64,000 bases of DNA from a virus: IMG/VR virus record IMGVR_UViG_3300028809_000011, positions 2,038 to 66,037 of that record; one strand, 5' to 3'. Made by a program: the position numbers and the translations under genes. Shown here in pieces: positions 24,539 to 48,065 of the stretch. Each line of letters starts with the position of its first letter. The stretch's first letter is position 1. The notes beneath the pieces are model-generated. The model saw only the letters and a list, made by a program, of their open reading frames with translations. It did no database searches and had not been told where the DNA came from.

Positions 24539-24862
24539 TCAGCCCCTCAGTAGCGCATCAAGCCTCGCGGCCCGCTCAGCTTCCGGTACCTGGACAACCA
24601 GTGTTGGCTTCGGACCAGTCCTGTTGCGTTCCGACTTCGGCTCGTCCGGCCCGGCCATACCGTAGCCGGTGGCCTGCATCCACGCCTTCACCTCGTTCGC
24701 GTCCCAGATCCGGCCCAGCCTCAGTGACCACACCGGTTGGGGGAAGGTTGGGTCTTCCAGCAGAAGCTGGCCCACCCGCCCCTTCGACCTGTCGATGATC
24801 TCCGACACCTCGGCGATACCGCACAGGTCACGCAGGGCAATCAGAGTGTCCGGGTCCTTCAT
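24539..24862 (-). CDS. HTH DNA-binding protein (excisionase/MerR-like), paralogue
   Basis: VGQLLLEDPTFPQPV motif; ATGA overlap with the Ro60 stop codon. Confidence 0.55.
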   Translation of the reverse strand: MKDPDTLIALRDLCGIAEVSEIIDRSKGRVGQLLLEDPTFPQPVWSLRLGRIWDANEVKAWMQATGYGMAGPDEPKSERNRTGPKPTLVVQVPEAERAARLDALLRG

Positions 24863-26490
24863 GCCACAACCTCCCACGGCCACCGGCCAGCGGTGCCCTC
24901 CTCGATCATCGACATCAGCGGAAAGCACGCGTCGGTCAGTCCACCGAAGCTGTGCCGGAACTTGCCCGTCGGCGCGTGCCCCTGCCGGTAGCCCGCCAGG
25001 TTGAACGTGTAGAAGTGCTTGTCAGCCGGAACGGGGGCATCCACACCCCGGAAGCCGGAGTAGTCGGCCTGCTCGTCGGTGAGGATGACGACCCGGTCGT
25101 GACCCTTGTAGGTGGCCTGGACAGCCCGAGCCGTCGGGGTGCCACCACCGATGTTGTAGCCCAGGCGCTGCCAGGAAGCCATCTCGGCCAGCACATCCGC
25201 ACCCTTCGTGGTCTTGAACTCCATCAGCCACTTGCCGTAGCCCGAGGCGTAGGAGTACAGGTCCACCTGGTTGCCCGCCTTCGCCAGGGCGATGCCGAAC
25301 AGGGCAGCCGCGTCCCGGCGCTTCATCTCCGAGTGCTCGGAGAACGCGTGACCCATGGAGCCCGACGTGTCGACCAGGACCAGGGTCCGGCCCGGCAGAG
25401 TCGGGATGTTCTTCAGAGACATGTCCAGGGCCATGGACAGCGGGCCACCCCAGCGGGAGTGCGGGGCGTTGCGGTGCGCGGCCAGAAACCGGAACGGGAA
25501 GATCTTCGACTTCGCCACGGCCTGCTCGTCGCACAGGCGGCCCATGACGTATGCGGCCGTCTTCGCGTCGATGCCTGCCTGGTCGAAGTTGCGCAGGTTG
25601 CGCAGCAGCGCGAAGTAGCCCATGTTCGGGATGATCGCCTGCCACGCCTGCGCGTCCATTGGACCCTGGAGCCAGCCCGCCAGGGCCTCCCAGGTCATGC
25701 CCGCAGACTTGAGCGCATCCGAAGCCTCGTGCTCACCGAGGAAGCTACGACGCTCAGCAACGGGCCAGCCCATCATGATCTGACGGACACGCAGCATCTT
25801 CAGCGACTCGGGGATCTCCACCTCACCGTACTTGCGGGCCACCAGGTAGCCGAACAGGTCCGACTGCCACGGTGCCTTCGCCTGCGGGTGCAGCAGGTTC
25901 AGCAGCCGGTCAGGGGTGAACTCCTTCTTGTCCGAGTTGCCGTACTTCATCGCCGTGTACTCGTTGAACAGCTCGGTCATCGCGTCGGCCCAGCCACGCT
26001 TCAGCGGCTTCGGGATCTGCGTGTTCGGGTACTTGGAGAAGTAGTAGGCCACGGCCTCACCGACCTCATCCGCACGACCCAGGCCAGCCTTGGCCAGCTT
26101 GCGCGACCAGCCCTGGTCACCGGCGGCAACCTGCACCAAGGGCACGTTCTTCAGGACCAGGGCAGCCTCGACTGAGGCGACCACGGCAGCGGTGCGCATG
26201 TTGCCCGTGTTGCGCAGCCAGCCGATGAAGCCGAACATCCACTCCGGGTCGGCCTTGGCGACCTCACGGACCAGCTTCACGAACCGGTCGTCGGCCTGCT
26301 TCGCGGACTCGTAGAACTTGTCCTGGCCGAACATCGAGTTCGTCGCGAGCAGGAACAGGGCCGACTTGTTCTCGTAGCTGAAACCGGCCGCACCGTTGCT
26401 GGTGGTCGTGTCCGGGATCGGCATGGATACCAGGGGGCCAGCGGTCACCCGTGGGATCTTCCGGTTGTCCTTCGTGTTGAACGGAGTCAT
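24859..26490 (-). CDS. rsr: Ro60 orthologue (TROVE domain + C-terminal vWA)
   Basis: 543 aa; N-terminal GFSYENKSALFLLATNSMFGQDKFYES TROVE-like; C-terminal vWA motif LVLVDTSGSM. Confidence 0.8.
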   Translation of the reverse strand: MTPFNTKDNRKIPRVTAGPLVSMPIPDTTTSNGAAGFSYENKSALFLLATNSMFGQDKFYESAKQADDRFVKLVREVAKADPEWMFGFIGWLRNTGNMRTAAVVASVEAALVLKNVPLVQVAAGDQGWSRKLAKAGLGRADEVGEAVAYYFSKYPNTQIPKPLKRGWADAMTELFNEYTAMKYGNSDKKEFTPDRLLNLLHPQAKAPWQSDLFGYLVARKYGEVEIPESLKMLRVRQIMMGWPVAERRSFLGEHEASDALKSAGMTWEALAGWLQGPMDAQAWQAIIPNMGYFALLRNLRNFDQAGIDAKTAAYVMGRLCDEQAVAKSKIFPFRFLAAHRNAPHSRWGGPLSMALDMSLKNIPTLPGRTLVLVDTSGSMGHAFSEHSEMKRRDAAALFGIALAKAGNQVDLYSYASGYGKWLMEFKTTKGADVLAEMASWQRLGYNIGGGTPTARAVQATYKGHDRVVILTDEQADYSGFRGVDAPVPADKHFYTFNLAGYRQGHAPTGKFRHSFGGLTDACFPLMSMIEEGTAGRWPWEVVA

Positions 26491-26705
26491 GCCAGAACCC
26501 TTCCTGAAGCGATGAAACGGATGTGACCACGACCCCAGTCGGTGTCGTCAGAAGGGTCGTAGGTCCAGCCCTTCTTGGCTGCCTCACGCCTGGCCGCGCC
26601 GATCTCGTCGTAGGTGGACGTAAACGGCGGACAGTCGCAGTCGGGGCCGTCGCACGAGAGCACGATGTACAGCGCTCCACTCATCCCAAACCTCCTAAAA
26701 ACCAA
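26487..26705 (-). CDS. small Cys-containing protein co-transcribed upstream of rsr
   Basis: 72 aa; CDGPDCDCPP motif; 4-nt overlap with the rsr start. Confidence 0.5.
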   Translation of the reverse strand: MVFRRFGMSGALYIVLSCDGPDCDCPPFTSTYDEIGAARREAAKKGWTYDPSDDTDWGRGHIRFIASGRVLA

Positions 26706-26745
26706 TACCCCGCTAGTCTCGGAAGACAGCGGGGATCAATGGTGA

Positions 26746-26835
26746 GTGCCCGAGGAAATCAGTCGGCTACGGGTGTGGGTCGCGAGACCTTTTGCGAAAA
26801 GATAGCGAAGTACCCGTCGCCTGGGCACCGGGCAC
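26746..26835 (-). ncRNA. candidate small structured RNA (unit A) bounded by GUGCCCG...CGGGCAC terminal stem
   Basis: the same 7-bp terminal pairing recurs at units B and C; internal CUUUUCGCAAAAG hairpin; no tRNA-like module. Confidence 0.3.
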
Positions 26836-26859
26836 CCAAACGTTAGATCCCCAGAGTTT

Positions 26860-26990
26860 AAAGCGATCTCGGATTCCCGATTATGAGTCGGGGTGAGCGC
26901 CATGCTCACTCTGCCATGAGTGGCAGAGACAAGAATCGAACTTGTGAAGTAACCGAGGTCATTGGCACCTGGGAATATATGAAGTTGTGT
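26860..26990 (-). ncRNA. tRNA-like element: T-arm, closed acceptor hairpin, D-arm-like, CAU anticodon-like hairpin
   Basis: minus strand reads ACAAG-TTCGATT-CTTGT, then CTCTGCC-ACTCAT-GGCAGAG, then GAGC-ATGGC-GCTC, then CCCGA-CTCATAA-TCGGG. Confidence 0.35.
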
Positions 26991-26994
26991 GTTG

Positions 26995-27066
26995 CGCCCC
27001 CTACAGGATTCGAACCTGTATCCCCGGCTCCGGAAGCCGGTCCTCTATCCGTTGAGGTAAAAGGGC
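26995..27066 (-). tRNA. tRNA-Arg(CCG)
   Basis: cloverleaf by hand; acceptor pairs with 2 G-U; loop TTCCGGA; T-loop TTCGAAT. Confidence 0.65.
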
Positions 27067-27070
27067 TTTG

Positions 27071-27143
27071 CGTCCCCACCAGGAGTCGAACCTGGGCCTG
27101 TGGTTCCGTAGACCACCGTCTTGTCCTCTGGACCATGGAGACG
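27071..27143 (-). tRNA. tRNA-Arg(ACG)
   Basis: anticodon stem GTGGT/ACCAC, loop CTACGGA; T-arm CCAGG-TTCGACT-CCTGG; unusual D-arm. Confidence 0.6.
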
Positions 27144-27146
27144 TGT

Positions 27147-27297
27147 GGATGCCCGAGTATAAGTCGACTAACCTGCGGCTTTCGCCAGCGCTCTGCCAAC
27201 TGAGCTACAGCAGTGTTTCCACCACCGAAGGGACTCGAACCCCTGACCTCTTCATTAACAGTGAAGTAAGGCTCGTCTTTGGCACCGGGCATCCGTT
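27147..27297 (-). ncRNA. candidate Y-RNA-like permuted tRNA mimic (unit B, tRNA-Asn-derived)
   Basis: order on minus strand: 9-bp terminal stem GGAUGCCCG/CGGGCAUCC; Asn-type anticodon arm; T-arm; acceptor 3' strand CGGTGGT, loop GGAAAC, acceptor 5' strand ACTGCTG; canonical D-arm. Confidence 0.45.
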
Positions 27298-27310
27298 TTT
27301 AAGTTTTCAA

Positions 27311-27466
27311 GTTGTAGCGTGCCCGAGGAAAAGTCGGTCCGGCTTCGTAGGCGCGTCTTCCATTTCCGCCACTTCGGCTAGGCCGAAGGCAGGATTTGAA
27401 CCTGCACTCCCTTTCGGGACCCTCCTGTATAGAGAAGAACTCCGTACCTGGGCACCGGGCACTGCA
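27311..27466 (-). ncRNA. candidate Y-RNA-like permuted tRNA mimic (unit C, class-II tRNA-like)
   Basis: terminal stem GUGCCCG/CGGGCAC; GAAA-capped variable-arm-like hairpin; T-arm GCAGG-TTCAAAT-CCTGC; closed acceptor CTTCGGC-CTA-GCCGAAG; D-arm-like GCG-GAAATGGAAGA-CGC. Confidence 0.4.
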
Positions 27467-27472
27467 TTCAGT

Positions 27473-27547
27473 TGGAACGGTTGACCGGACTCGAACCGGC
27501 GTCATCTGCTTGGAAGGCAGAGGTTCTGGCCATTGAACTACAACCGC
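27473..27547 (-). tRNA. tRNA-Gly(TCC), CCA encoded
   Basis: acceptor GCGGTTG/CAACCGT (G1-U72); loop CTTCCAA; T-arm GCCGG-TTCGAGT-CCGGT. Confidence 0.65.
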
Positions 27548-27625
27548 GCAGGTCCCCGAGGAGTCGAACCCCGGTCTTTCCCAGCTTTGGAGGCCAGGTC
27601 CGTCCCACTTGACCCAAGTGCAAGG
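27548..27625 (-). pseudogene. tRNA-Trp(CCA)-like element lacking an acceptor 5' partner
   Basis: T-arm CGGGG-TTCGACT-CCTCG and loop CTCCAAA present, but the 5' region is a CACTTG-GGT-CAAGTG hairpin. Confidence 0.35.
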
Positions 27626-27922
27626 CGAGGAGTAGTCGCGGTGAGGGGGGCTTGTAGATCGCCAAATGATTTGAAGTACCCCTCGGTGCTTGGCACCGCC
27701 TTGCAGGACCCACTCTACTCACATATCTGCCAGACCTGCAAGCCCAATCCTGGGTCTTTTTATCCGACCTTCCGTGCATAAGTTGCAAAAGCGGACATAG
27801 AGGGTAACATCGGGAATGCAAGCTGATCATCGCTGGCTGCGGGCCGGGTGAACAGGGAGCGCTGCACCACCTACGCGCGTAACACCCGTCCACCTGCCCA
27901 TCCCCACGGAGGGATATCAGCG

Positions 27923-47992: not shown

Positions 47993-48065
47993 CTCTCCCA
48001 CCTGGGCTCGAACCAGGGACCTGCGCATTAACAGTGCGCCGCTACTACCGCTGAGCTATAGGAGA
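47993..48065 (-). tRNA. tRNA-Asn(GTT)
   Basis: acceptor TCTCCTA/TGGGAGA; loop CTGTTAA; T-arm CCTGG-TTCGAGC-CCAGG. Confidence 0.7.

What the first reader, a model, noticed from the sequence alone, without database searches (positions are those of the whole stretch)
26746..27466. Tandem circularly permuted tRNA-like RNAs with closed acceptor stems next to rsr (Ro60): candidate Y-RNA (YrlA-type) mimics
Three minus-strand elements carry genuine T-arms and D-arms on the same strand as rsr. In each, the acceptor 3' strand pairs with a sequence directly downstream through a short loop, so the acceptor stem is closed and the 5'/3' ends lie elsewhere.
- 26860-26990: CTCTGCC-ACTCAT-GGCAGAG.
- 27147-27297: CGGTGGT-GGAAAC-ACTGCTG.
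- 27311-27466: CTTCGGC-CTA-GCCGAAG.
Units 26746-26835, 27147-27297 and 27319-27465 are each bounded by the same terminal pairing GUGCCCG / CGGGCAC; unit B extends it to 9 bp (GGAUGCCCG/CGGGCAUCC). On the plus strand this appears as direct repeats GTGCCCGAG... and ...GGCACCGGGCA, three times.
This is the architecture described for bacterial YrlA RNAs: a tRNA-like T-arm, D-arm and closed acceptor, with the RNA ends paired into the Ro60-binding stem. Unit B looks derived from tRNA-Asn (CTGTTAATG anticodon arm nearly identical to the real tRNA-Asn at 47993-48065). Unit C looks class-II-like with a GAAA-capped variable arm. A bulged helix CGGU(G)CC/GGACCG can be drawn inside unit C's terminal stem. 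A GGUCCG string occurs on the opposite strand, so strand and Ro-binding-site assignment remain open.
Basis: partly seen in the sequence, partly recalled or inferred. Interest (0 to 1): 0.9.

Follow-up and report, generated by a model that had tools for sequence, protein, structure and literature searches.

The report
Five phage Y RNAs beside Ro60
Just upstream of its Ro60 gene, this actinobacteriophage encodes five tandem Y RNAs, three of them with a circularly permuted tRNA-like head; they are real and conserved, but they belong to an already described class of Ro60 partner RNAs.

Summary
The minus strand between 27705 and 26743 carries five Y-RNA-like units, not three. C, B and A are YrlA-type: T arm, closed 7-8 bp acceptor, D arm. 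E and D are short, YrlB-like. They are interleaved with tRNA-Gly, two tRNA-Arg and a tRNA-Trp-like element. They lie between a promoter-like site and a terminator hairpin, directly upstream of a small ORF and rsr (Ro60).

All five share one scaffold: covarying terminal stem P1, GGUGCC(A/C)A loop, stem P2, (U)UACUUC, variable head, P2', CGACU-N-CU, P1'. A covariance model built without window sequences finds B, C, D and A as the four best hits in 64 kb (124 to 50 bits). It finds 325 further matches in metagenomic, viral and named actinobacterial rsr loci, all on the rsr strand. In the model-fitted alignment of the best 150 matches, 28 of 32 pairs show changes on both sides.

Such RNAs next to rsr are published for 254 bacteria and 22 phages (Chen 2014) and for Thermus phage phiLo (2025). 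These are therefore new members of a known kind. Local twists are anticodon-arm-like hairpins and a lineage-wide G-to-C switch in the presumed Ro60-binding motif.

The parts
27712..27741 (-). Promoter-like site: TTGCAG, 18-nt spacer, TAGAGT. It ends about 7 nt before unit E.
   Evidence: Read, coordinates. The same TTGCA(C/G)-N18-TAGAGT arrangement is seen in relatives L002, L170 and L171. It was not called by the sigma-70 consensus scan. Inference only.
27619..27705 (-). Y RNA unit E, short (YrlB-like). P1 is UGCAAGGCG/CGCCUUGCA, with GGUGCCAAG loop, P2 and GUACUUC. It has no tRNA-like head.
   Evidence: Signature finder. Model R1: 27.3 bits, E = 7e-6. Fold z = -3.6. P1 covaries with orthologs.
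27548..27618 (-). tRNA-Trp(CCA)-like element without a canonical D arm. It is part of the same transcription unit but is not a Y RNA.
   Evidence: Anticodon-like arm and T arm in the fold. Not called in the window. The ortholog in L171 is called tRNA-Trp. The sequence is conserved in L002-L007 and L170-L172.
27473..27547 (-). tRNA-Gly(UCC), interleaved with the Y RNAs.
   Evidence: ARAGORN. Rfam tRNA, 67.7 bits.
27319..27462 (-). Y RNA unit C (YrlA-type). P1 is GUGCCCG/CGGGCAC. Degenerate anticodon-like hairpin 27437-27421. GAAA-capped extra arm 27420-27408. T arm 27405-27389. Closed acceptor 27388-27372. Class-II-like D arm 27370-27350.
   Evidence: R1: 63.9 bits, E = 2e-12. Compensatory acceptor changes in L002 (UCCCGGC/GCCGGGA) and others. 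Coordinates.
27147..27294 (-). Y RNA unit B (YrlA-type). P1 is GGAUGCCCG/CGGGCAUCC. Asn-like anticodon hairpin CUUCA-CUGUUAA-UGAAG 27266-27250. Variable loop AGGUC. T arm 27244-27228. Closed acceptor 27227-27208. D arm 27205-27190. GAAA hairpin 27188-27173.
   Evidence: R1: 124 bits, E = 1e-25. Rfam YrlA core hit of 25.7 bits and tRNA hit of 29.4 bits. 22 of 34 pairs are compensatory among orthologs and paralogs.
26994..27142 (-). tRNA-Arg(ACG) 27142-27070 and tRNA-Arg(CCG) 27066-26994, lying between units B and A.
   Evidence: ARAGORN. Rfam tRNA, 54.2 and 62 bits.
26847..26976 (-). Y RNA unit A (YrlA-type). P1 is AUUCCCAG/CUGGGGAU. T arm 26945-26929. Closed acceptor with ACUCAU loop 26928-26909. 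D arm 26907-26895. Extra hairpin with CUCAUAA (CAU anticodon-like) loop 26892-26876.
   Evidence: R1: 49.6 bits, E = 3e-9. Fold z = -4.7. Six of 8 acceptor pairs are compensatory among 10 orthologs.
26743..26838 (-). Y RNA unit D, short (YrlB-like). P1 is UGGGUGCCCG/CGGGCACUCA. It has no tRNA-like head.
   Evidence: R1: 50.4 bits, E = 2e-9. Fold z = -2.4. P1 covaries.
26697..26734 (-). Intrinsic-terminator-like hairpin CCCCGCUGUCU-UCCG-AGACUAGCGGGG followed by UAUUGGUUUUU. It closes the tRNA/Y RNA array.
   Evidence: Terminator scan hit. Fold -22.1 kcal/mol, z = -4.4. Conserved in L002, L007, L167, L168 and L170.
26487..26684 (-). Small Cys-rich ORF (65 aa) with an AGGAGG ribosome-binding site. 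Its stop overlaps the rsr start.
   Evidence: ORF list and sequence. Homologous small genes are called directly upstream of rsr in relatives. No Pfam or PHROG match.
24859..26490 (-). rsr, the Ro60 ortholog (543 aa, TROVE plus vWA domains with an intact DxSxS metal-binding motif (MIDAS)). It is the presumed protein partner of the five RNAs.
   Evidence: Pfam TROVE 1.6e-15 and VWA_2. PHROG RNA-binding protein 3.6e-44. PDB match to Thermus phage phiLo Ro60, 9KOP/9L5Y, 1.2e-19. Invariant D374/S376/S378.

Best explanation
The region is a phage operon of non-coding RNAs. It holds five Y RNAs (E, C, B, A, D), three tRNAs and one tRNA-Trp-like RNA.

Inferred: the operon is transcribed from a promoter near 27741-27712 and ends at a terminator near 26734-26697, just upstream of a small ORF and the phage Ro60 gene.

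Shown: each Y RNA has the same scaffold. The 5' and 3' ends pair into stem P1. An internal loop carries GGUGCC(A/C)A on the 5' strand and CGACU..CU on the 3' strand. A second stem, P2, follows, then a (U)UACUUC motif. In C, B and A the scaffold carries a tRNA-like head whose order is circularly permuted: anticodon-like or variable hairpin, T arm, acceptor stem closed by a short loop, D arm. E and D carry only a small hairpin or loop.

Inferred, by analogy with M. smegmatis YrlA/YrlB and phiLo Yrl1/Yrl2:
- The precursor is cut out by the tRNA-processing machinery.
- Phage Ro60 binds the P1/internal-loop module.
- The tRNA-like heads present an L-shaped tRNA elbow to a tRNA-binding or RNA-degrading partner, most plausibly host PNPase.
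- Ro60 is thereby tethered or gated during infection.
- The 7-8 bp closed acceptors make RNase P cleavage possible, as in M. smegmatis.
For: Sequence and folds:
- T arms and closed acceptors form in each tRNA-like unit, and D arms in B and A; the fold draws C's D arm differently.

Independent model:
- R1, built from 22 non-window sequences, ranks B, C, D and A as the top four hits in 64 kb and finds E with filters off.

Association with rsr:
- 290 signature hits on the rsr strand versus 1 on the other in 172 loci.
- 170 R1 matches in metagenome and viral loci (174 including four in the window) and 151 in 80 named actinobacterial genomes. All are on the rsr strand. In the genome loci nearly all lie just upstream of rsr.

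Covariation:
- 95.2% of cells are paired versus 67% in shuffles.
- The covariation score is 0.632, versus 0.163 in shuffles and at most 0.113 when partners are slid.
- 28 of 32 pairs change on both sides.
- All 7 closed-acceptor pairs covary.
- Ortholog-level compensatory changes appear.

Common reader of the loop motif:
- The sixth base of GGUGCN is uniform within 88 of 89 multi-unit loci. No locus mixes G and C. The window's clade is all-C, although the same unit types exist in all-G relatives.

Protein partner:
- A TROVE plus vWA protein lies next door.

Literature:
- Phage Ro60 binds two upstream Y-like RNAs and host PNPase (PMC12135203).
Against: - There are no expression, end-mapping or binding data for this phage.
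- The Rfam YrlA model reaches only 25.7 bits against a gathering score of 69, and only on the T-acceptor-D core of B.
- The published 5' motif (GNCGAAN0-1G, or 'CGAA') is not present as such in the window. Here it reads GCCAA or GCCCA.
- The promoter is my reading and was not called by the consensus scan.
- The covariation alignment (A5) was fitted to the model's structure, which favours that structure.
- I did not run the model on an experimentally validated YrlA (M. smegmatis or mycobacteriophage ET08). The link to that family therefore rests on shared architecture, taxonomy and genomic context.
- No PNPase, RtcB or CCA-adding enzyme was found among the 32 window ORFs scanned. Any such partner would have to be host-encoded.
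Confidence: 0.88

Rival explanations
1. The units are permuted (or split) tRNA genes. Their transcripts would be matured by RNase P cleavage in the acceptor loop plus CCA addition, or through a circular intermediate. The products would be decoding or chargeable tRNAs: Asn-like from B, Met/Ile-like from A.
For: - Re-ordered, B is a complete cloverleaf with a canonical CUGUUAA loop, an AGGUC variable loop and 7-8 bp acceptor pairing.
- A carries a CUCAUAA loop on a covarying stem in win, L005, L006 and L170.
- M. smegmatis YrlA is cleaved by RNase P and receives CCA in vivo.
Against: - The same scaffold carries no tRNA part in E and D.
- The anticodon-like loop is not conserved in C orthologs: CUAUACA, CUUACAA, CUUCCAA, CUCACAC.
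- Two B orthologs have AUU instead of GUU.
- A's extra hairpin is absent or different in L007, L087, L167-169 and L171.
- Acceptor loops across the family are mostly stable tetraloops such as UUCG, not CCA-like.
- The phage already has ordinary tRNA-Asn and tRNA-Met genes.
- The elements track rsr, not tRNA clusters.
Confidence: 0.04
2. The elements are tRNA pseudogene debris, or a detection artefact. In the artefact, the T arm of one tRNA and the D arm of the next are read as one unit.
For: - The units sit among genuine tRNAs.
- The model does give weak hits (31 bits or less) on adjacent tRNA pairs elsewhere in the window.
- Chen 2014 warned about exactly this artefact.
Against: - No annotated tRNA overlaps the units.
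- The acceptor strands flanking each short loop are complementary to each other and covary, 7 of 7 pairs.
- P1 and P2 enclose each unit and covary.
- Units are conserved in order and sequence at Ro60 identities from 92% down to about 50%.
- The window units score 50-124 bits, against 31 bits or less for true tRNA pairs.
Confidence: 0.02
3. The structured region is a cis-acting leader that regulates rsr (attenuator or processing platform), rather than a set of stable trans-acting RNAs.
For: - The array is directly upstream of rsr on the same strand.
- A terminator-like hairpin lies between the array and the small ORF, so read-through could control rsr expression.
Against: - In Arthrobacter phage Atuin the matching units lie downstream of rsr. 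In several loci they are more than 1 kb away.
- Each unit is a self-contained stem-closed module, repeated 2-8 times.
- Homologous RNAs are stable, Ro60-bound species in M. smegmatis and bind Ro60 in phiLo.
Confidence: 0.04

Closest known systems
YrlA RNAs (S. Typhimurium YrlA, PDB 6CU1; M. smegmatis YrlA; Rfam RF02553)
   Same: - Encoded next to rsr on the same strand.
- The ends pair into a long stem with a conserved 5'-strand motif.
- A YUAY motif (UUAC here) precedes the head.
- The head is a circularly permuted tRNA mimic: T arm, closed acceptor, D arm, with a UA/UG linker and a G15:C48 or A15:U48 option.
- The 7-bp acceptor matches M. smegmatis.
- It is co-encoded with a shorter Y RNA.
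   Different: - The Rfam model scores only 25.7 bits against a gathering score of 69.
- The 5' motif reads GGUGCC(A/C)A instead of GNCGAAN0-1G.
- B and C keep a full anticodon-arm-like hairpin plus variable loop. A keeps one after the D arm. S. Typhimurium YrlA 'lacks the anticodon loop'.
- Three YrlA-type paralogs are interleaved with tRNAs in one array.
YrlB (S. Typhimurium, M. smegmatis)
   Same: Short Ro60-associated RNAs encoded beside YrlA and processed from the same precursor. They share the Ro-binding motif but lack the full tRNA-like head. Units E and D fit this description.
   Different: There is no detectable sequence homology to test. YrlB orthologs were only found within S. enterica by BLAST. 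M. smegmatis YrlB has a possible T arm, whereas E and D have none.
Thermus phage phiLo Yrl1/Yrl2 with phage Ro60 (PMC12135203; PDB 9KOP, 9L5Y)
   Same: A phage-encoded Ro60 with tandem Y-like RNAs directly upstream. The RNAs have stem, internal bulge and stem with a conserved motif. The window's Ro60 matches the phiLo protein (E = 1.2e-19).
   Different: - phiLo has two RNAs with a CGAA motif, and no tRNA-like head is mentioned.
- Here there are five RNAs, three with tRNA-like heads, and the motif base is C rather than G.
- Binding and a PNPase complex were shown for phiLo and are only inferred here.
D. radiodurans Yrn1 and metazoan Y RNAs
   Same: Terminal stem plus a conserved helix or loop that Ro60 reads. 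GGUCCGA in metazoa resembles GGUGC(G/C)A here, and UUGACU resembles CGACU. Both act as a tether or gate for Ro60.
   Different: - In Yrn1 the T and D arms have the opposite orientation relative to the RNA 5' end. That unpermuted D-anticodon-T order occurs in some relatives (e.g. L007 2789-2927) but not in the window.
- Metazoan Y RNAs have no tRNA-like module.
Circularly permuted tRNA genes (Cyanidioschyzon merolae) and two-piece tmRNA
   Same: The 3' half (T arm, acceptor 3' strand) is encoded upstream of the 5' half (acceptor 5' strand, D arm). (Recalled from my own knowledge, not tested here.)
   Different: Those genes yield functional tRNA or tmRNA after processing, and their anticodon or tag functions are conserved. 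Here the anticodon-like loops are variable or absent, and the elements are tied to rsr.

Membership tests
YrlA-type bacterial/phage Y RNA (Chen et al. 2014) | Encoded within about 4 kb of a Ro60 (TROVE) gene, on the same strand | tested here: met
   The units lie 253-1215 nt upstream of rsr (24859-26490, minus strand) on the minus strand.
YrlA-type bacterial/phage Y RNA (Chen et al. 2014) | Central tRNA-like module in the order (V) - T arm - closed acceptor stem-loop - D arm | tested here: met
   Present in C, B and A. The Rfam YrlA core alignment on B shows the same order. Helices are supported by covariation. E and D lack the module.
YrlA-type bacterial/phage Y RNA (Chen et al. 2014) | Conserved tRNA tertiary-interaction nucleotides: T loop UUCRANY, D loop GG, U8-like linker, 15:48 Levitt pair | tested here: met
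   By inspection. B has UA linker, G15, G18G19, C48 and GUUCGAGUC. C has UG linker, A15, U48 and GUUCAAAUC. A has UG linker, GG and GUUCGAUUC, but its 15:48 pair is unclear.
YrlA-type bacterial/phage Y RNA (Chen et al. 2014) | 5'-proximal GNCGAAN0-1G ('CGAA') motif thought to contact Ro60 | tested here: not met
   The window units read GGUGCCAAG, GGUGCCCAGG, GGUGCCAAAG and GGUGCCAAUG. Relatives at 50-59% Ro60 identity and the bacterial loci read GGUGCGAAG or GGUGCGCAGG. The window carries a one-base variant, shared by all its paralogs.
YrlA-type bacterial/phage Y RNA (Chen et al. 2014) | Conserved YUAY preceding the V region | tested here: met
   UUAC in B and A, GUAC in D and E, GUUC in C. 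Each is followed by UUC.
YrlA-type bacterial/phage Y RNA (Chen et al. 2014) | 5' and 3' ends paired into a long stem | tested here: met
   P1 is 7-10 bp in all five units. Seven of 9 P1 pairs change on both sides across 145 sequences.
YrlA-type bacterial/phage Y RNA (Chen et al. 2014) | Stable RNA bound by Ro60 in vivo | not testable with these tools
   Needs Northern blot or RNA-seq, plus Ro60 co-immunoprecipitation.
Rfam RF02553 (YrlA covariance model) | Score at or above the gathering threshold of 69 bits | tested here: not met
   The best hit is 25.7 bits on B, model positions 24-84 only. There were no hits at gathering score in 17 related loci. The model appears blind to the whole actinobacterial group.
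Actinobacterial rsr-linked Y RNA group (model R1, built here) | Match to a covariance model trained on non-window rsr-linked units | tested here: met
   B 124, C 63.9, D 50.4, A 49.6 and E 27.3 bits. The same model hits Streptomyces, Nocardia, Amycolatopsis, Micromonospora, Streptosporangium and Rhodococcus rsr loci, and the cultured phages GiJojo, Neville and Atuin.
Functional (permuted) tRNA gene | Conserved anticodon loop and identity across orthologs; detection as tRNA | tested here: not met
   ARAGORN calls none of the window units. Rfam tRNA gives only a borderline 29.4-bit D-armless alignment on B. Anticodon-like loops vary or are missing among orthologs of C and A.

The most novel reading that the evidence does not exclude
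The tRNA-like heads may be identity-specific mimics rather than generic tRNA elbows. Candidates are an Asn-type anticodon arm kept nearly unchanged in B orthologs, a class-II Leu/Ser-type body in C, and a CAU-loop arm in A.

A phage would then load one Ro60 with a panel of different tRNA look-alikes. Two uses are conceivable. The panel could act as decoys or sensors for host tRNA-targeting defences or tRNA-modifying enzymes. [quoted passage not shown]

The lineage-wide G-to-C switch in all paralogs would mark co-evolution of this RNA panel with its own Ro60.
Probability: 0.12. Interest if true: 0.7.

Novelty: new member of a known kind. Interest (0 to 1): 0.35.

Why it matters
Practical value:
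- These RNAs are invisible to standard annotation. Rfam's YrlA model misses them.
- In cultured actinophages the matching sequences overlap annotated features. In Streptomyces phage GiJojo it is a tRNA gene. In Gordonia phage Neville they are small 'hypothetical protein' ORFs.
- A model such as R1 would recover hundreds of Y RNAs in Actinobacteria and their phages.

Biological value:
- What the tRNA-like module of bacterial Y RNAs does is still an open question.
- A phage array of five paralogs offers a compact natural comparison set. The paralogs share one Ro60-binding scaffold, have different heads or none, and carry a clade-specific change in the presumed binding motif.
- This set could be used to test Ro60 recognition and the partners of the heads.

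It does not change what kind of system this is.

Tried and rejected
- Rfam scans at gathering and at E-value thresholds gave only tRNAs plus a sub-threshold YrlA core hit.
- Megablast and blastn of the region against 50,697 phage records found no homolog beyond the tRNA-Gly gene. Relatives had to be reached through the Ro60 protein.
- Protein-coding explanation for the overlapping mechanical ORFs (26906-27292, 27299-27505, 27068-27484): rejected. They run through tRNA genes. Orthologous units differ by non-triplet indels (B is 136-161 nt; one tRNA-Arg is absent in L002). Substitutions are pairwise compensatory.
- The sigma-70 scan found no promoter. The promoter I give is a conserved actinobacterial-type reading, not a tool call.
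- An alternative metazoan-like helix, GGU(G)C(G)/(C)GACU, can be drawn in all units. It competes with the last two P1 pairs, and the bases involved are invariant, so covariation cannot decide.
- I looked for phage-encoded partners (PNPase, RtcB, CCA-adding enzyme) among 32 ORFs with Pfam or PHROGs. Only structural proteins, terminase, a PD-(D/E)XK nuclease and an HNH protein were identified. About half of the 62 ORFs of at least 110 aa picked were not scanned.
- The supplementary alignments of Chen 2014 are not held. I could not test model R1 on the validated M. smegmatis or ET08 sequences.
Full report
WHAT IS THERE

The window comes from a tailed phage. Terminase, portal, a MuF-like region, major head and major tail proteins were identified. 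It carries 24 tRNA genes, all on the minus strand.

ORF 24859-26490 (minus strand) is a Ro60/Rsr ortholog:
- Pfam TROVE plus vWA domains.
- PHROG 'RNA-binding protein'.
- It matches the solved Ro60 of Thermus phage phiLo.
- Its best cultured relatives are 'Ro-like RNA binding proteins' of Streptomyces, Arthrobacter and Gordonia phages, at 39-45% identity.

Reading the minus strand upstream of rsr gives this order:
- a promoter-like TTGCAG-N18-TAGAGT (27741-27712)
- unit E (27705-27619)
- a tRNA-Trp-like element (27618-27548)
- tRNA-Gly (27547-27473)
- unit C (27462-27319)
- unit B (27294-27147)
- tRNA-Arg(ACG) and tRNA-Arg(CCG) (27142-26994)
- unit A (26976-26847)
- unit D (26838-26743)
- a terminator-like hairpin with a U tract (26734-26697)
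- a 65-aa Cys-rich ORF with a strong ribosome-binding site (26684-26487)
- rsr

The whole cassette is inserted, in reverse orientation, between the portal/MuF genes and the major head gene.

CHECK OF THE OBSERVATION

The T arms and closed acceptors of A, B and C, and the D arms of A and B, form in unconstrained folds. Three points needed correction.
- Unit A has its own terminal stem (AUUCCCAG/CUGGGGAU). Its 5' part is homologous to B's (repeat D6).
- A fifth unit, E, lies upstream of tRNA-Gly.
- B's terminal stem is AUGCCCG-based, so it is a relative of GUGCCCG rather than a copy.

All five units share one scaffold:
- stem P1
- GGUGCC(A/C)A(G) on the 5' strand
- stem P2
- (U)UACUUC
- a variable insert
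- P2'
- CGACU, then 3-5 nt, then CU on the 3' strand
- P1'

A simple signature for this scaffold hits five times on the minus strand here and nowhere else in 64 kb on either strand.

RELATIVES AND STATISTICS

The DNA has no close match among 50,697 phage records. I therefore reached relatives through Ro60.

The sources were:
- Metagenome proteins at 92-48% identity and their contigs.
- 80 JGI metagenome loci.
- 80 IMG/VR loci.
- 80 named genomes.

The close relatives keep the same synteny: major head gene, about 1.3-1.6 kb of non-coding DNA, a small ORF, then rsr. They carry 4-8 units each.

Across 172 loci the signature occurs 290 times on the rsr strand and once on the opposite strand.

I built covariance model R1 from 22 units, none from the window. 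Its results:
- In the window it ranks B (124 bits), C (63.9), D (50.4) and A (49.6) as the top four hits. The next hits, at 31 bits or less, are adjacent-tRNA artefacts.
- E scores 27.3 bits with filters off.
- It finds 170 matches in metagenome and viral loci at E of 1e-5 or better (174, four of them in the window).
- It finds 151 matches in the rsr loci of Streptomyces, Nocardia, Amycolatopsis, Micromonospora, Streptosporangium, Rhodococcus and others.
- Every one of these is on the rsr strand. In the genome loci nearly all lie immediately upstream of rsr.

On the alignment of the best 150 matches:
- 95.2% of cells pair, against 67% in column shuffles and 35-46% when partners are slid.
- The covariation score is 0.632, against 0.163 in shuffles and at most 0.113 when slid.
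- 28 of 32 pairs change on both sides.
- All seven pairs of the closed acceptor covary.

That alignment is fitted to the model, which favours the structure. MAFFT-based ortholog alignments do not have that bias, and they show the same thing:
- 22 of 34 pairs are compensatory for B-type units.
- 6 of 8 acceptor pairs are compensatory for A-type units.
- 7 of 10 P1 pairs are compensatory for D/E-type units.

One concrete example involves two phages whose Ro60 proteins are 92% identical. B's acceptor is CGGUGGU/ACUGCUG in the window and CGCCCCC/GGGGGUG in L002.

WHAT THE UNITS ARE

C, B and A have the architecture published for YrlA RNAs:
- They are encoded next to rsr on the same strand.
- Their ends pair into a stem.
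- A YUAY motif comes before the head.
- The head is a tRNA-like module in the order V, T arm, closed acceptor, D arm (PMC4201824).
- The crystal-structure paper describes this module as a circularly permuted tRNA with a closed acceptor (bioRxiv 10.1101/312249).

The 7-bp acceptors match M. smegmatis YrlA. That RNA is 147 nt, lies upstream of rsr, is co-transcribed with a shorter YrlB, and is cleaved by RNase P and CCA-tailed in vivo.

E and D fit the YrlB role. They have the same Ro-module and no tRNA head.

Phage examples are also published. Chen 2014 lists 22 phages. Thermus phage phiLo has two Y-like RNAs directly upstream of its Ro60. Those RNAs bind Ro60 and assemble with host PNPase (PMC12135203).

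The group found here is evidently the actinobacterial branch of this class. It is present in named Actinobacteria. It is also present in cultured actinophages, where it is unannotated or overlaps other annotations.

HOW IT MOST LIKELY WORKS

Shown by sequence and comparison:
- The five units are independent stem-closed modules with a shared, conserved internal loop and variable heads.
- They are packed 4-24 nt from each other and from tRNAs.
- A terminator-like hairpin follows the last unit.

Inferred:
- One precursor is made from the conserved promoter-like site.
- It is processed by RNase P, RNase Z and other nucleases, as in M. smegmatis.
- Phage Ro60 binds the P1/loop module.
- The tRNA-like heads recruit a tRNA-binding or RNA-degrading partner, with host PNPase as the precedent.

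An internal argument supports a single protein reader of the loop. The sixth base of GGUGCN is uniform within 88 of 89 multi-unit loci, and no locus mixes G and C. The window's clade is all-C. Relatives at 50-59% Ro60 identity (L009, L170-L172) are all-G, yet L170-L172 contain recognisable orthologs of units B, A, D and E. The change therefore happened in all paralogs of one lineage.

WHERE IT DEPARTS FROM THE TEXTBOOK CASE

1. The published 'CGAA' motif is CCAA or CCCA here.
2. Rfam's YrlA model does not reach threshold on any locus I tried.
3. Re-ordered, B is a complete cloverleaf. Its hairpin CUUCA-CUGUUAA-UGAAG plus AGGUC equals the loop and variable loop of the phage's own tRNA-Asn. The hairpin is nearly invariant in ten orthologs, while the T and acceptor stems drift.
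4. C has a class-II-like D arm and extra arm.
5. A has an additional hairpin with a CUCAUAA loop after the D arm. It is kept, with a covarying stem, in a subset of orthologs.
6. Family-wide, 7 nt is the modal loop size of the hairpin before the T arm. Of those 48 loops, 33 fit the anticodon-loop pattern YU-NNN-R-N.

These leftovers fit the proposal that YrlA arose from dimeric tRNA transcripts. They also leave open an identity-specific function. They are variable among orthologs of C and A, so I do not read the units as decoding tRNAs.

VERDICT

The finding is genuine, and its interpretation as Y RNA / YrlA-type mimics is supported. The class is already known, including in phages, so it is a new member (in fact five) of a known kind.

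The main added value has three parts:
- a corrected map of the locus
- a working covariance model for a large, currently unannotated actinobacterial and actinophage group
- the concerted motif switch as a handle on Ro60 recognition

Noticed in passing
window 27548-27618 (minus strand): A conserved tRNA-Trp(CCA)-like element lies between unit E and tRNA-Gly. It has an anticodon arm and a T arm but no canonical D arm. ARAGORN and Rfam do not call it in the window, but its ortholog in L171 (2150-2227) is called tRNA-Trp. The window has no other tRNA-Trp. The sequence is almost unchanged even in relatives with 50-58% Ro60 identity.
   Followed up: partly
window 26487-26684 (minus strand): A 65-aa Cys-rich ORF (C..C.C ... 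GWTYD ... DW..GH) has a strong AGGAGG site, and its stop overlaps the rsr start. A small gene occupies the same position in most close relatives (37-65 aa). It has no Pfam or PHROG match and could be a small zinc-binding partner of Ro60.
   Followed up: partly
L253 (Streptomyces phage GiJojo) 1873-2372; L254 (Gordonia phage Neville) 1928-2299; L255 (Arthrobacter phage Atuin) 4399-4831: Cultured actinophages carry arrays of 3-5 matches to the Y RNA model next to rsr, and none is annotated as such. One GiJojo match overlaps the gene annotated tRNA-Arg(cct). The Neville matches lie under three 'hypothetical protein' ORFs (gp88-90). In Atuin the array is downstream of rsr.
   Followed up: partly
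window 26978-26988 (minus strand); many related loci: A leader motif ACAACUUCAUA (core AACUUCA) lies shortly before Y units. In 172 loci the core occurs 128 times on the rsr strand and 38 on the other, and 60 copies sit 2-17 nt (mostly 7-13 nt) upstream of a unit's terminal stem. It could be a processing site or an internal promoter element.
   Followed up: partly
L007 2789-2927, L087 3044-3190, L167 2915-3066, L168 3079-3227, L169 3078-3219, L170 2865-3002, L171 2847-2993, L172 3166-3309: Relatives have an extra unit type, absent from the window. In it the same Ro-binding scaffold carries a tRNA-like head in the normal, unpermuted order (D arm, anticodon-like arm with non-canonical loops, T arm). 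ARAGORN calls several of these as tRNAs with odd anticodons. So permuted and unpermuted heads coexist in one array.
   Followed up: partly
all multi-unit rsr loci: The sixth base of the GGUGCN motif is uniform within loci: 78 all-G, 9 all-C, 1 all-A and 1 mixed A/C. No locus mixes G and C. This indicates concerted change of all Y RNA paralogs within a lineage.
   Followed up: yes
window 27220-27283 (minus strand): Rfam's tRNA model just reaches its gathering score (29.4 versus 29 bits) on part of unit B. It pairs the Ro-motif bases GCCAAAG with the acceptor 3' strand. This is a false tRNA call that automated pipelines could propagate.
   Followed up: yes
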